Below are positions 3,384-36,671 of a DNA stretch of 36,671 nucleotides, piece by piece. This DNA is from a virus. The stretch is taken from UHGV virus genome UHGV-0271399; one strand, written 5' to 3'. The notes under the pieces are model-generated. The model made no database searches. It was not told the origin of the DNA and saw nothing but the letters and a program-made list of their open reading frames with translations. The first letter of the stretch is position 1. Each line of letters starts with the position of its first letter. Both the position numbers and the translations under genes were made by a program.

Positions 3384-4045
3384 GCTCCTACATCAAAACC
3401 ACTGATGAATTCGTTATCCATATCAAAACCAAAAAATTTTGAGCCTTCCGATGGGGTTTCCACCGAAGGTGTTTCAATGCCACCCGCCCATACCCCGGCG
3501 GCTTTTACTGTGAGATACCCCTGTTTAATTGCCGCAATTAACTCACGCGATACATCTGAAATATCAGTATCAGGAAAGACCCAGACCGATATCGTCATGT
3601 CCTGGTTATCGACTATCTGCATTCGCAGCCCGGATCCTGCTGTTGCCGCGTCAAGAATTGCCGGAAGCGAATCATTCCGTCCGTCCCAGTTATTAATCGC
3701 AATCTTCGCTTTAAGAATGACACGATAAGTTTCATCGCTGAGATACATGTATCCAGAATCAGGATCATATGGCCCCTGCCATACACCCTGATCATATCCA
3801 AGCCCGTCGGTATCCCAGCTGAAATAGACACCTGAAATAGGCTGGCTGACAACACGGCTACGTCCGATCCACAATCCCAGAATGTCAAGTTGCATACCAA
3901 CCGCAGAGTCAATATCAAATGCAGTAATCAGCCCTCTGGTGGCAGCCGCAACATCAATAAGTGGCCGGGTCATCAGATCAACATGCGCAAGAAATTTAGG
4001 TTTGGTGGCGTGATGGTTTGTGATTAGTTCGGTGTATTTGCTCAT
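3365..4045 (-). CDS. Baseplate wedge / fibre-attachment protein (Mu gp48 / P2 gpI-like)
   Basis: 226 aa; position between baseplate J and tail fibre; ATGA overlap with gpJ-like stop. Confidence 0.5.
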   Translation of the reverse strand: MSKYTELITNHHATKPKFLAHVDLMTRPLIDVAAATRGLITAFDIDSAVGMQLDILGLWIGRSRVVSQPISGVYFSWDTDGLGYDQGVWQGPYDPDSGYMYLSDETYRVILKAKIAINNWDGRNDSLPAILDAATAGSGLRMQIVDNQDMTISVWVFPDTDISDVSRELIAAIKQGYLTVKAAGVWAGGIETPSVETPSEGSKFFGFDMDNEFISGFDVGAWGVLL

Positions 4046-32521: not shown

Positions 32522-33874
<1,353 letters not shown>

Positions 33875-34225: not shown

Positions 34226-34549
34226 ATGGATGCACAAACACGCCGCCGCGAACGTCGCGCAGAGAAACAGGCTCAATGGAAAGCAGCAAATCCCCTGTTG
34301 GTTGGGGTAAGCACAAAACCAGTTAACCGCCCTATTCTCTCGCTGAATCGCAAACCGAAATCACGAGTAGAAAGCGCACTAAATCCGATAGACCTTACAG
34401 TGCTGGCTGAATACCACGAACAGATTGAAAGCAACCTGCAACGTATTGAGCGCAAGAATCATCGAGTTTGGTATAGCAAGCCAGGTGAGTTCGGTATAAC
34501 TTGTCAAGGAAGACAAAAGGTTAAAGGGAAATCCATTCCATTGGCATGA
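34226..34549 (+). CDS. N: Antiterminator N
   Basis: 107 aa from ATG 34226 (AGGAGA RBS), near-identical to lambda N (MDAQTRRRERRAEKQAQWKAANPLL...). Confidence 0.9.
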   Translation: MDAQTRRRERRAEKQAQWKAANPLLVGVSTKPVNRPILSLNRKPKSRVESALNPIDLTVLAEYHEQIESNLQRIERKNHRVWYSKPGEFGITCQGRQKVKGKSIPLA

Positions 34550-34557
34550 GGTACGTA

Positions 34558-35427
34558 ATGAAGAAGATTGATTACAAGTCCATACCAAAACCAATAGACT
34601 CAGCATCAGAGCGAAAAAAACACAAAAAAGAGGCTGAAAAATTAGTAAATTATATCAGTTTTATTAGAAACAATGCTCACGGCGATGGCGACAAGAAGTT
34701 GCTTTCAGATGCTCGGACCCAAGCGTTCGGTATACTTCGTAAGCAGATGCAATATCGTCTTCATCCAGGCTACATAATTGAAATTCGCCCTACTGAAAGA
34801 CAATTGTTCTTATTAAACTCTGTCTTTGACTTTGTAAACGTAGTTGGAGATCTTATCGACAGATCTGTAGATAAGGATCCTGATACAAATAGTTTTCTTC
34901 TAACAAATAAAGAATACTTATATGGTAAATTCGGTATAAACGGATGGCAAAAATATGTACGCTTCTTACGTGCATTCGTTGATGCGTATAAAAATTCCGA
35001 CATGATTTATACATATTTGCCTGGTGGTGATAATTGTACGCTTTCGGCAGACAATAGAATATTCATACCTGTACTTGGTCTTGGGCTGATTAATGCAGTA
35101 AATGAAAGAGATGTTATAATTGTTAAGCAGTGGCGAAAATATGAGGGATATAGATATCTGCCATGCTTTGATATATTAAAAATACAGAATAAATTCTATG
35201 TAAAAATTAAATATAAAGAAGATATTTTCTTCCTCAGAAAAAACAAAGATCTTTTACAAGAACTTTCTGGTACAATAGATGTCATCTTAGGTTCTAGGTT
35301 TATAAAAGAACTGAAAGAAAGCAGGTCTTTCTCTCGTGTAGAGATAAGCGAGTCAGAGTTATGGGGTATATCAAATAATCCTGTAAACCACGCTCACCAA
35401 CGAAACCCAAACAAAAAGTGGTCATAA
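34558..35427 (+). CDS. Hypothetical ~289-aa protein in pL operon (unknown; candidate exclusion/defence gene)
   Basis: ATG 34558 with GAGG RBS (alternative ATG 34546 overlapping N stop); AT-rich; Lys/Tyr/Asn-rich; occupies the ral/sieB position between N and ea10. Confidence 0.7.
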   Translation: MKKIDYKSIPKPIDSASERKKHKKEAEKLVNYISFIRNNAHGDGDKKLLSDARTQAFGILRKQMQYRLHPGYIIEIRPTERQLFLLNSVFDFVNVVGDLIDRSVDKDPDTNSFLLTNKEYLYGKFGINGWQKYVRFLRAFVDAYKNSDMIYTYLPGGDNCTLSADNRIFIPVLGLGLINAVNERDVIIVKQWRKYEGYRYLPCFDILKIQNKFYVKIKYKEDIFFLRKNKDLLQELSGTIDVILGSRFIKELKESRSFSRVEISESELWGISNNPVNHAHQRNPNKKWS

Positions 35428-35569
35428 CCCGCTTAGGCGGATTTCATTTTCACGCAAACAACAGAATAAACACTGCACTGTGTATTCATTCCAACGAGTG
35501 AATACACGGAGCAATGTCGCTCGTAACTAAACAGGAGCCGACTTGTTCTGATTATTGGAAATCTTCTTT

Positions 35570-35596
35570 GCCCTCCAATGTGAGGGCGATTTTTTA
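35570..35596 (+). terminator. Putative rho-independent terminator
   Basis: GCCCTC/GAGGGC stem with 6-nt loop followed by GATTTTTTAT. Confidence 0.45.
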
Positions 35597-35615
35597 TCTG
35601 TGAGGATATGAACAG

Positions 35616-35984: not shown

Positions 35985-36056
35985 GCGCGGCGTTACCGCA
36001 TACCAATAACGCTTCACTCGAGGCGTTTTTCGTTATGTATAAATAAGGAGCACACC

Positions 36057-36221
36057 ATGCAATATGCCATTGCAGGGTGGCCTGTTGCTGGCTGCCCTTC
36101 CGAATCTTTACTTGAACGAATCACCCGCAAATTACGTGGCGGATGGAAACGCCTTATCGACATACTTAATCAGCCAGGAGTCCCAAAAAATGGATCAAAC
36201 ACTTATGGCTATCCAGACTAA
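36057..36221 (+). CDS. cIII: CIII (FtsH inhibitor)
   Basis: 54 aa, AAGGAG RBS; [54 protein letters not shown]; not in track because under 60 aa. Confidence 0.85.
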   Translation: MQYAIAGWPVAGCPSESLLERITRKLRGGWKRLIDILNQPGVPKNGSNTYGYPD

Positions 36222-36333
36222 ATTCACTATCGCCACTTTTATTGGCGATGAAAAGATGTTTCGTGAGGCCGTCGACGCTTATAAAAAATGGATATTAATA
36301 CTGAAACTGAGATCAAGCAAAAGCATTCACTAA
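36190..36333 (+). CDS. kil: Kil (host killing/FtsZ inhibitor)
   Basis: 47 aa from ATG 36190 ([47 protein letters not shown]); overlaps cIII 3' end as in lambda. Confidence 0.8.
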
Positions 36334-36408
36334 CCCCCTTTCCTGTTTTCCTAATCAGCCTGGCATTTCGCGGGCGATATTTTCACAGCCATTTTCAGGA
36401 GTTCAGCC

Positions 36409-36671
36409 ATGAACGCTTATTACATTCAGGATCGTCTTGAGGCTCAGAGCTGGGCGCGTCACTACCAGCAGATCGCCCGTGAAGAGAAAGAGGCAGAACT
36501 GGCAGACGACATGGAAAAATGCCTGCACCAGCACCTGTTTGAATCGCTATGCATCGATCATTTGCAACGCCACGGGGCCAGCAAAAAAGCCATTACCCGT
36601 GCGTTTGATGACGATGTTGAGTTTCAGGAGCGCATGGCAGAACACATCCGGTACATGGTTGAAACCATTGC
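36409..36671 (+). CDS. gam: Gam (RecBCD inhibitor), short form, 3'-truncated by window end
   Basis: ATG 36409; [37 protein letters not shown]... matches lambda GamS. Confidence 0.85.

What the first reader, a model, noticed from the sequence alone, without database searches (positions are those of the whole stretch)
34546..35427. Unknown ~290-aa AT-rich gene coupled to N at the ral/sieB position of the pL operon
In lambda the region just downstream of N holds ral (restriction alleviation) and sieB (superinfection exclusion). Here a single long AT-rich ORF overlaps or immediately follows the N stop and precedes a terminator and ea10. Its Lys/Tyr/Asn-rich sequence has no motif I recognise. Position and composition argue for a horizontally acquired accessory gene, plausibly exclusion, anti-restriction or abortive infection.
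Basis: partly seen in the sequence, partly recalled or inferred. Interest (0 to 1): 0.75.

Follow-up and report, generated by a model that had tools for sequence, protein, structure and literature searches.

The report
Nun-tailed TnpB-like protein behind N
The unknown gene after N encodes a protein whose last 14 residues are identical to the RNA-polymerase-jamming tail of the phage exclusion factor Nun, attached not to Nun's small RNA-binding motif but to a folded domain resembling the nucleic-acid-recognition half of TnpB/Cas12 nucleases, so it is probably a new type of transcription-blocking weapon.

Summary
The ORF is real. It is AT-rich, sits 8 nt after N (likely start 34558, not 34546), and replaces lambda sieB/ral. 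It is the phage 434 gene CPT_434_48, labelled in GenBank only as 'Nun C-terminal peptide-containing protein', with no publication on it.

Three new points:
- Its last 14 residues equal HK022 Nun 96-109. Across homologues only 36-47% identical in the body, the invariant tail residues are exactly Nun's RNAP/nucleic-acid contact residues. Synonymous sites there are saturated, so the tail is under selection and is not a recombination scar.
- The body also occurs in Betaproteobacteria inside BREX loci and other defence islands, with a different conserved tail (GGLPSLGKxR). That tail also ends small zinc-finger proteins encoded directly behind N genes, the same slot used by nun.

Best reading: a Nun-class blocker of transcription elongation with a new nucleic-acid-binding targeting module, probably used in phage-phage conflict. 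Its target, its activity and the timing of its expression are all untested. New variant of a known kind; high interest.

The parts
34226..34549 (+). N antiterminator gene (lambda-type ARM, MDAQTRRRERRAEKQAQWK). The gene of interest is coupled to it.
   Evidence: Pfam N36 E=1.2e-25; phage 434 annotation 'antiterminator'. In the 34 long-family loci recovered, the gene nearly always lies directly behind an N gene.
34548..34551 (+). Shine-Dalgarno GAGG, overlapping the N stop codon (TGA 34547-34549), 6 nt before the ATG at 34558
   Evidence: Sequence; an RBS is annotated at the same place in phage 434.
34558..35427 (+). CDS of the 289-aa Nun-tailed TnpB-like protein. An alternative in-frame ATG at 34546 would add MRYV.
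   Evidence: ORF; 99.3% identical to phage 434 CPT_434_48 / UMO75312.1; PHROG 12139 E=9e-205 from residue 5.
34614..34620 (+). A7 homopolymer (codons R19-K21), followed by an A6 run at 34624-34629; frameshift hotspot
   Evidence: Four viral loci have 226-aa ORFs starting at M64. In the two examined (L036 and L064) the reading frame shifts within this poly-A stretch, with different out-of-frame peptides.
34603..34752 (+). N-terminal basic helical hairpin (aa 16-65; residues 1-70 carry net charge +9). It is present in all Nun-tailed members and absent from most GKRR-tailed relatives, some of which carry a different N-terminal extension.
   Evidence: AF2 model m5756c145c007: helices 16-38 and 43-65, pLDDT ~90; alignment A5; charge.
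34768..35217 (+). TnpB/Cas12-type WED-REC-WED module (aa 71-220): strand 72-77 carrying the P78-x3-Q82-x3-L86-x3-F90 motif, REC helices 80-145, WED strands 152-217
35224..35331 (+). Long C-terminal helix (aa 223-258), at the position where TnpB would continue into RuvC
   Evidence: AF2 secondary structure. The protein ends 31 residues later, so there is no room for RuvC or TNB.
35326..35355 (+). Conserved linker motif SFSRVEISES (aa 257-266) at the start of the disordered C-terminal region. It is shared, as S[FY]xRV[DE], with several of the GKRR-tailed relatives.
   Evidence: Invariant columns in A3; alignment A5; pLDDT <50 from residue 255.
35383..35424 (+). Nun tail VNHAHQRNPNKKWS (aa 276-289), identical to HK022/mEpX1 Nun residues 96-109
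   Evidence: N277, H278, H280, R282, K286, K287 and W288 are invariant in the family and correspond to Nun contact residues N97, H98, H100, R102, K106, K107 and W108 (PMC5386594). pS ~0.9-1.0 against pN ~0.1.
35429..35450 (+). Post-stop hairpin CCGC-TTAG-GCGG plus a T-rich run. It is homologous to the hairpin after nun (CCCAC-TTCG-GTGGG in mEpX1), with compensatory changes.
   Evidence: DNA alignment A1.
35568..35599 (+). Intrinsic terminator upstream of ea10 (8-bp stem plus T-run), shared with lambda and many lambdoid phages
   Evidence: Terminator scan; annotated terminator in phage 434; conserved flank in many phages.

Best explanation
The gene encodes a two-module, Nun-class inhibitor of transcription elongation.

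Shown: the last 14 residues are identical to the part of HK022 Nun that threads into the main cleft of the E. coli RNA polymerase elongation complex. The residues that contact the beta' rudder, the RNA, the template DNA and the downstream duplex are invariant across the family under strong purifying selection. This tail lies at the end of a ~35-residue disordered segment. The preceding ~250 residues form a confident fold whose core (aa ~71-220) is the WED-REC half of TnpB/Cas12 RNA-guided nucleases, with no RuvC nuclease or zinc finger. The gene occupies the same slot as nun: directly behind N, or behind a put-like leader in N-less HK022-type phages.

Inferred: the tail blocks RNAP translocation as Nun's does. 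Nun's tail alone binds any elongation complex only weakly (Kd ~300 nM) and gains specificity from tethering by its N-terminal ARM. Here the TnpB-like module would replace the ARM as the tether. It would bind a nucleic-acid feature (nascent RNA structure, duplex DNA motif or RNA:DNA hybrid) on the transcription complexes of a rival phage or mobile element, and so direct arrest there.

More speculative: because it is co-expressed with N, the phage's own N-modified complexes may be protected, since lambda N also occupies the hybrid cavity. The biological role would then be exclusion of competitors, possibly with selective shut-off of non-N-modified transcription.
For: Tail identity to Nun: PHROG 5632 E=8e-5; PDB 6alg_N E=9e-4; real Nun from mEpX1.

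PMC5386594: only Nun 87-109 is seen in the cleft and it holds all known arrest determinants. Contacts are N97, H98, H100, R102, K106, K107 and W108, and N103 is a no-contact control. Removing 13 C-terminal residues abolishes RNAP binding. Specificity comes from ARM-boxB tethering, and Nun is toxic when overexpressed.

Family conservation: those contact residues are invariant and the N103 equivalent varies. The tail is 79% identical where the body is 33-46%. In the tail codons pS is ~0.9-1.0 against pN ~0.1 for most pairs of divergent loci.

Structure: AF2 pLDDT 83, pTM 0.78, with a disordered tail.

Slot equivalence: nun lies 8 nt behind N in mEpX1. Of 75 assessable short Nun-tail genes, 59 have an upstream ORF within 60 nt, mostly an N gene with a different ARM 1-7 nt away. 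The long gene lies behind N genes of several ARM types. It follows an HK022 put-like leader in L004.

Defence association of the body: BREX-embedded relatives; a DISARM-like neighbourhood; Pycsar and ApeA neighbours.
Against: There is no direct evidence that this protein binds or arrests RNAP.

The Nun residues H93 and R94, which contact upstream DNA, are replaced by N273 and N274. R94A strongly weakens Nun binding, so the tail may bind more weakly.

The ligand of the TnpB-like module is unknown.

Nun works from a repressed prophage, but this gene is wired into the pL operon, and no promoter-like signal above chance was found (5 sites against 5.1 expected). Expression in lysogens is therefore unproven.

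The same body carries a non-Nun tail in other bacteria, so the body is not intrinsically tied to RNAP.

The BREX association comes from one closely related set of loci.
Confidence: 0.55

Rival explanations
1. Lytic-phase regulator rather than defence. The protein is made with N from pL after infection or induction. It uses its Nun tail to stall host (or unmodified phage) transcription complexes, giving host shut-off or fine-tuning of early transcription for the phage's own benefit. Excluding rival phages is not its purpose.
For: It is translationally coupled to N in the pL operon. No independent promoter stands out. Nun is known to arrest host RNAP non-specifically when abundant. From my own knowledge (Krupp et al. 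2019, not retrievable here), lambda N occupies the RNAP hybrid cavity, which could shield the phage's own N-modified complexes.
Against: Classical nun occupies the same slot and is an exclusion gene expressed in lysogens. Body homologues sit in bacterial defence islands. The gene is dispensable and patchy: lambda, lambda imm434 and most lambdoid phages lack it. P0004-type phages carry it without any N.
Confidence: 0.22
2. The Nun tail is a passenger. The 3' end of nun and its terminator form a recombination boundary, and the tail merely supplies a stop codon and terminator to an unrelated gene. The TnpB-like body then acts by another mechanism, for example DNA binding in a BREX-like or regulatory role.
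For: DNA similarity to nun covers only the last 14 codons plus the post-stop hairpin. The same flank is a known mosaic boundary in lambdoid phages ('bsq4 boundary sequence' in Sf6). The body functions with a different tail elsewhere.
Against: The tail is retained in homologues down to 36-42% identity, in hosts as distant as Pantoea, and in both N-type and put-type phages. Synonymous sites are saturated while the contact residues stay invariant, and the variable positions coincide with non-contact positions of Nun. The tail is the best conserved segment of the protein.
Confidence: 0.1
3. RNA-guided arrest. The WED-REC module still binds a guide RNA (an omega-RNA-like transcript) and uses base pairing to bring the Nun tail to complementary DNA or RNA. 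This would make it a nuclease-free, TnpB-derived programmable transcription blocker.
For: In TnpB/Cas12 the WED and REC domains cradle the guide scaffold and the guide-target duplex (established knowledge; PDB entries 8h1j and 9udi are such complexes). Nuclease-dead TnpB derivatives that repress transcription are known (TldR; my own knowledge).
Against: No Rfam or other structured-RNA signal lies next to the gene. In BREX loci the gene is packed between brxC and pglX with gaps of 21-34 nt, which leaves no room for a guide locus. The downstream non-coding DNA in the window is shared with phages that lack the gene. The RuvC/TNB surfaces that hold much of the omega-RNA are absent.
Confidence: 0.05

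Closest known systems
HK022 Nun (transcription arrest / superinfection exclusion factor; PDB 6ALG)
   Same: The C-terminal 14 residues are identical, and all cleft-contact residues are conserved. A homologous post-stop hairpin is present. The gene slot is the same: directly behind N, or behind the put leader, in the pL operon. The logic is also modular: a targeting module plus a threading tail.
   Different: Nun is ~109 aa and largely unstructured, and it targets lambda boxB RNA through an arginine-rich motif. This protein is 289 aa, has no ARM, and has a folded TnpB-like WED-REC body with an extra helical hairpin. It lacks Nun H93 and R94. It coexists with a lambda-type N, which a lambda-specific Nun could not. 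Its activity and target are untested.
TnpB / Cas12 / Fanzor RNA-guided nucleases (e.g. ISDra2 TnpB 8H1J, RdCas12n 9UDI) and nuclease-dead derivatives (TldR)
   Different: The RuvC domain, the catalytic triad, the zinc-finger/TNB domain and the C-terminal domain are all absent. No transposon ends, no TnpA and no adjacent guide RNA are present. It has an added N-terminal hairpin and a C-terminal threading peptide. TldR proteins keep the whole (inactive) RuvC fold and a guide RNA; this protein does not.
Unnamed GGLPSLGKxR-tailed relatives in BREX and other defence islands (P0010-P0036)
   Same: The WED-REC body is homologous (profile E down to 1e-16). The S[FY]xRV[DE] linker motif is shared with several of them. 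The architecture is the same: body plus a short conserved C-terminal peptide.
   Different: They carry a different tail, and most lack the N-terminal hairpin. They occur in Betaproteobacteria and an Acidobacteriota MAG, on chromosomes and plasmids (between brxC and pglX, or next to DISARM-like, Pycsar or ApeA genes), not in lambdoid prophages.
Lambda SieB and Ral (the genes at this position in lambda)
   Same: Same genomic interval between N and ea10, and the same category of dispensable accessory gene involved in conflict with other phages or with restriction.
   Different: No sequence or structural similarity, and different sizes (SieB is a membrane protein, Ral is 66 aa). No evidence for restriction alleviation or SieB-type abortive exclusion.

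Membership tests
HK022 Nun family | C-terminal RNAP-cleft peptide with N97, H98, H100, R102, K106, K107 and W108 at the extreme C-terminus | tested here: met
   VNHAHQRNPNKKWS-COOH is identical to Nun 96-109. These residues are invariant in the family. Their roles are given in PMC5386594.
HK022 Nun family | H93/R94 contacts to the upstream DNA duplex | tested here: not met
   The equivalent residues are N273 and N274 (alignment). R94A strongly affects Nun binding.
HK022 Nun family | N-terminal arginine-rich motif that binds boxB RNA | tested here: not met
   No ARM is present. The N-terminal 250 residues form a folded domain. The short Nun-tail proteins all carry ARM-like N-termini.
HK022 Nun family | Small (~80-125 aa) protein | tested here: not met
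   289 aa. The survey shows two discrete size classes.
HK022 Nun family | Gene in the pL operon directly behind N or behind the put leader | tested here: met
HK022 Nun family | Arrests RNAP translocation and excludes a specific phage | not testable with these tools
   Needs in vitro transcription and plating assays.
TnpB/Cas12 (OMEGA) superfamily | WED-REC N-terminal fold with the strand-P-x3-Q-helix motif | tested here: met
TnpB/Cas12 (OMEGA) superfamily | RuvC nuclease domain with a D-E-D triad | tested here: not met
   After residue ~220 the protein has only one helix and a disordered tail. hhalign against the TnpB C-terminal half gives P=0.97.
TnpB/Cas12 (OMEGA) superfamily | Zinc-finger / target-nucleic-acid-binding domain | tested here: not met
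   No such region in the sequence or the model.
TnpB/Cas12 (OMEGA) superfamily | Adjacent guide (omega/re) RNA and transposon ends | tested here: inconclusive
   No Rfam hit. There is no intergenic room in the BREX loci. No dedicated covariation search was made.
BREX system component | Encoded within a brxA-brxB-brxC-pglX operon | tested here: not met
   The window gene lies in a prophage pL operon. Only distant GKRR-tailed relatives are BREX-embedded. Neither the window protein nor the one BREX-embedded relative tested has a PADLOC model.
Lambda SieB / Ral | Sequence homology to SieB or Ral | tested here: not met
   No Pfam, PHROG or NCBIfam match to either. Lambda DNA matches only the flanks.

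The most novel reading that the evidence does not exclude
The window gene is the enterobacterial representative of an undescribed class of modular 'threading-tail' effectors. In this class a domesticated, RuvC-less TnpB WED-REC nucleic-acid-recognition module (or, in smaller relatives, an ARM or a zinc finger) delivers one of at least two portable C-terminal peptides to selected transcription complexes: the Nun tail NHAHxRxxxKKW, or the so far uncharacterised GGLPSLGKxR. Prophages would use these proteins from the slot behind N, and bacteria would use them inside BREX and other defence islands. If so, the GGLPSLGKxR peptide is a second RNAP-jamming (or otherwise elongation-complex-binding) peptide, and some BREX variants include a transcription-directed component.
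Probability: 0.3. Interest if true: 0.9.

Novelty: new variant of a known kind. Interest (0 to 1): 0.8.

Why it matters
Nun is the textbook case of a phage protein that jams RNA polymerase, and it has been treated as a small ARM protein specific for lambda nut RNA. This finding has several consequences if it holds.
- It shows the arrest peptide is a portable module that evolution has attached to a completely different, much larger targeting domain. That widens what Nun-type exclusion can recognise.
- It identifies a previously unrecognised fate of TnpB: loss of the nuclease half and reuse of the WED-REC half as a delivery module.
- It links that module to BREX, whose mechanism of phage inhibition is still unknown.
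- It exposes a second conserved C-terminal peptide that occupies the same genomic slot as Nun.
- The protein comes from a classical, easily manipulated phage (434), so each prediction can be tested directly with existing Nun assays and Nun-resistant rpoC alleles.

Tried and rejected
- Pfam, NCBIfam and PADLOC scans of the protein found nothing. Pfam on 16 distant relatives also found nothing.
- The first AF2 run with only 4 sequences was unusable (pLDDT 55).
- Foldseek against the PDB gave no significant hit, only a suggestive enrichment of Cas12 structures.
- A profile search against PDB sequences found nothing.
- The word-indexed homologue search found only 4 clusters. The exhaustive profile search was needed to reach the distant relatives.
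- The search for related loci on the very divergent alignment failed, and afdb50 was unavailable.
- Rfam found no RNA next to the gene or its relatives, so the guide-RNA idea gained no support.
- The promoter scan was at chance level, so expression in the prophage state could not be addressed.
- The GGLPSLGKxR tail had no PDB match and no literature match.
- The literature searches found no paper on the gene. The 434 genome announcement does not discuss it. I could not retrieve the lambda N antitermination-complex paper, so the 'N protects its own complexes' idea rests on my memory only.
- I rejected the anti-restriction (Ral-like) and SieB-like readings for lack of any similarity.
- I rejected the 'recent recombination scar' reading because the tail is conserved across saturated synonymous divergence.
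Full report
OBSERVATION. It is clearly AT-rich, at 31-37% GC against 41-52% in N and the DNA upstream of it. The first ATG overlaps the N stop codon (ATGA). A second in-frame ATG at 34558 has a GAGG 6 nt upstream. It is the start used in the phage 434 record, by PHROG 12139 and by all homologues, so the product is most likely 289 aa. Upstream lies a lambda-type N gene (34226-34549; Pfam N36 E=1e-25). Downstream lie a terminator (35568-35599), ea10 (DUF2528), cIII, kil and gam. Lambda records match only the N and ea10 flanks and carry sieB and ral in between. The 'ral/sieB position' statement is therefore correct.

IDENTITY. The interval is 98.7% identical to wild-type phage 434 (OL657226), and the window carries 434-type immunity: cI434, the Hex gene and pL/nutL. 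The gene is CPT_434_48 / UMO75312.1. The depositors named it 'Nun C-terminal peptide-containing protein' on the basis of a BLASTp match. The genome announcement does not mention it (PMC9119081), and I found no paper about it. Among 50,697 phage records the protein body occurs only in 434 and 434B. Lambda imm434 has sieB and ral instead, so classical hybrid-phage work never tested this gene. It is present in 117 of 5426 complete E. coli genomes and is always annotated 'hypothetical protein'. Pfam, NCBIfam and PADLOC give nothing.

THE TAIL. Residues 276-289, VNHAHQRNPNKKWS, are identical to the last 14 residues of Nun. This is seen with PHROG 5632 (E=8e-5), PDB 6alg_N (E=9e-4) and mEpX1 Nun. 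At the DNA level, similarity to nun starts exactly at codon V276 and continues ~15-20 nt past the stop into a hairpin that shows compensatory changes. The cryo-EM study of Nun (PMC5386594) reports the following:
- Only residues 87-109 are ordered in the RNAP cleft, and they contain all known arrest determinants.
- R102 pairs with the C-terminal carboxylate.
- K106, K107 and W108 contact the nucleic acids.
- N103 makes no important contact.
- Removing 13 C-terminal residues abolishes RNAP binding.

The decisive test was whether the tail is a recent recombination scar, and it is not. Homologues only 36-47% identical in the body (P0004, P0005, P0006, P0035) come from Pantoea-like and other prophages, and all end in VNHAH-x-R-x-x-x-KKW(S). 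The invariant positions are N277, H278, A279, H280, R282, K286, K287 and W288, which include all of Nun's contact residues. The positions that vary are Q281, N283 (the N103 equivalent), P284, N285 and the final S. For most pairs of these loci, synonymous sites in the tail codons are saturated (pS ~0.9-1.0) while pN is ~0.1. The tail is also the best conserved segment of the protein, at 79% identity against 33-46% for the body. One difference from Nun is that H93 and R94, which touch the upstream duplex, are replaced by N273 and N274.

THE BODY. An AF2 model built from 29 family sequences is confident (pLDDT 83, pTM 0.78). It shows a basic helical hairpin (aa 16-65), then a beta-strand (72-77), helices (80-145) and beta-strands with one helix (152-217), then a long helix (223-258) and a disordered C-terminus from ~255.

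At the sequence level, the family's nearly invariant P78-x3-Q82-x3-L86-x3-F90 following the first strand matches the same pattern at the N-terminus of real TnpB and Cas12n chains. A profile-profile alignment against eight annotated TnpB proteins is co-linear over 145 columns, with family positions 62-216 against TnpB 2-166 (score 28.4, P=0.006). It is confined to the TnpB N-terminal half: the C-terminal RuvC half gives P=0.97 and the reversed template gives P=0.43. None of 60 block-shuffled controls reached its score. The body is therefore a WED-REC-WED module of TnpB type. The RuvC nuclease and the zinc-finger domains are simply absent, because the protein ends.

RELATIVES AND CONTEXT. An exhaustive profile search found about 25 representatives. 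Besides the Nun-tailed prophage proteins, there is a set of 213-326-aa proteins that share the core, and several of them also share the linker motif S[FY]xRV[DE]. These end in a different, equally conserved peptide...GGLPSLGK(K/R)R-COOH. They occur in Burkholderia, Paraburkholderia, Dechloromonas, a Neisseria MAG and an Acidobacteriota MAG. Their contexts are:
- Three clusters lie between brxC and pglX of a BREX operon (brxA-brxB-brxC-X-pglX; PADLOC scan of one of these loci E=0 to 1e-93).
- One lies near a DISARM-like helicase/MZB/PLD cluster.
- One is immediately followed by a Pycsar pair and an ApeA HEPN protein.
- Another lies about 3.7 kb downstream of an MZB protein and a UvrD-type helicase.

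The body is thus repeatedly associated with defence islands.

THE SLOT BEHIND N. A degenerate-codon scan of viral contigs for NHAHxRxxxKKW showed two architectures. One is many short proteins (79-123 aa) with diverse arginine-rich N-termini. The other is a single long family, this one.

Of 75 assessable short genes, 59 have an upstream ORF of at least 50 aa within 60 nt. Most lie 1-7 nt behind an N-type antiterminator whose ARM differs from their own. For example, the lambda-boxB-specific classical Nun sits behind a phi21-type N. The long gene likewise lies directly behind N (a 4-nt overlap, or a gap of 1-22 nt) for several N ARM types. In N-less phages it follows a leader that is 74% identical to the HK022 pL-nun interval, which by my knowledge of the literature contains putL. 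The long protein is therefore a positional allele of nun.

A scan for the second tail showed that GGLPSLGKKR also ends 80-88-aa C2H2-like zinc-finger proteins (phrog_20899, unknown function). In enterobacterial lambdoid phages these lie 2-5 nt behind N genes of at least three ARM types (a fourth type, in L158, lies 33 nt upstream), are followed by ral in several loci, and in one case lie directly after a Nun-type gene.

So three kinds of body (ARM, zinc finger, TnpB-like) combine with two kinds of tail, and all three prophage combinations use the same slot. This combinatorial pattern is the strongest indirect argument that the two tails do related jobs. What the GGLPSLGKxR peptide binds is unknown: it has no PDB match and no literature match.

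MECHANISM.
Shown: an identical, selected Nun arrest peptide at the end of a flexible linker; a folded TnpB-type WED-REC module; occupancy of the nun slot; and relatives of the body in defence loci.

Inferred: the tail threads into the elongation-complex cleft and blocks translocation. Nun's tail alone binds unspecific complexes only weakly and is tethered by its ARM. The WED-REC module, which in TnpB/Cas12 recognises duplex DNA motifs and RNA and RNA-DNA duplexes, would supply tethering and specificity here. That may be all the more necessary because the H93/R94 contacts are missing. A lambda-boxB-specific Nun would be suicidal for a phage with lambda-type N and nut. A different targeting module avoids this problem.

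Speculative: the conserved coupling to N might mean that N-modified complexes are immune, because N itself traverses the hybrid cavity. That rests on my recollection of Krupp et al. 2019, which I could not retrieve.

Rival readings are given separately: a lytic-phase regulator, a passenger tail, and RNA-guided arrest. The guide-RNA idea found no support. There is no Rfam signal, the BREX-embedded genes have no intergenic room, and the downstream DNA is shared with phages that lack the gene.

LIMITS. Nothing here demonstrates RNAP binding, arrest, exclusion or expression in lysogens. The promoter scan was at chance level. The TnpB assignment rests on a predicted structure plus a weak but specific sequence signal. 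The BREX association derives from closely related loci.

VERDICT. The Nun-tail similarity was already noted in a GenBank product name. As far as I could check, the selected status of the tail, the TnpB-like nature of the body, its defence-island relatives with an alternative tail, and the general 'tail-effector slot behind N' are undescribed. I rate it a new variant of a known kind, with interest 0.8.

Noticed in passing
L143-L167 and L039 (viral contigs), e.g. L148:5561-5827; also P0010-P0036: A second portable C-terminal peptide, GGLP[ST]LGK.R-COOH. It ends 80-88-aa C2H2-like zinc-finger proteins (phrog_20899, unknown function) encoded 2-5 nt behind N genes (33 nt in one locus) and followed by ral in several loci. 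It also ends other small phage proteins with unrelated N-termini, and the TnpB-like relatives in defence islands. It has no PDB match and no literature match. In the genome scan, 84 of the 90 pattern matches did not pass the tblastn check as relatives of the TnpB-like body; those stretches were not returned, so what they encode was not examined.
   Followed up: partly
L007-L126 (viral contigs): The Nun-tail family of short proteins is much more diverse than classical Nun. Members carry lambda-N-like (MDAQARRREKRK...), phi21-like and P22-like ARMs. They usually sit 1-7 nt behind an N gene with a different ARM, which suggests systematic 'own N plus anti-rival Nun' pairs.
   Followed up: partly
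window 34614-34629; L036, L059, L064, L103: An A7 run followed by an A6 run lies near codons 19-24. Four viral loci carry ORFs of 226 aa starting at M64. In the two examined (L036, L064) the frame shifts within this poly-A stretch, with different out-of-frame peptides. Possible causes are slippage-prone phase variation, pseudogenisation or sequencing error.
   Followed up: partly
L127-L130, L133 (BREX loci): This BREX variant has brxA-brxB-brxC-[TnpB-like GKRR protein]-pglX. In L127 and L129 pglX is followed by 376-aa and 423-aa proteins without a family assignment and by an HSP70-like 610-aa protein. pglZ and brxL were not seen within the fetched flanks.
   Followed up: no
window 33398-33874 (overlapping the cI end at 33473): The 158-aa ORF at the rex position matches phrog_2651. 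It corresponds to the phage 434 Hex 'repressor protection protein' (PMID 23303392 is cited in the 434 record, which notes that the published start codon was wrong).
   Followed up: no
window 36288-36440 and 36410 onward: The long form of gam ([11 protein letters not shown]...) appears to run out of frame with the short form ([11 protein letters not shown]...) and stops after 50 codons. The phage 434 record annotates only the short Gam. The comparison with lambda GamL is from memory.
   Followed up: no
window 36044-36102: The lambda cIII thermoregulator RNA element is present (Rfam RF01804, 88.5 bits, E=2e-21) at the start of cIII.
   Followed up: no
L030:3257-3292 and 3556-3591 (- strand): Two Nun-tail motifs lie 299 nt apart on one viral contig, suggesting two tandem Nun-type genes.
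   Followed up: no
L136 (Burkholderia sp. IDO3 plasmid p1, 171806-172750): On Burkholderia megaplasmids the GKRR-tailed relative sits in a run of small hypothetical genes, about 2 kb downstream of a ChpB-type toxin-antitoxin pair and within ~4 kb of a site-specific integrase and an H-NS gene. This looks more like a plasmid accessory or leading region than a defence island.
   Followed up: no
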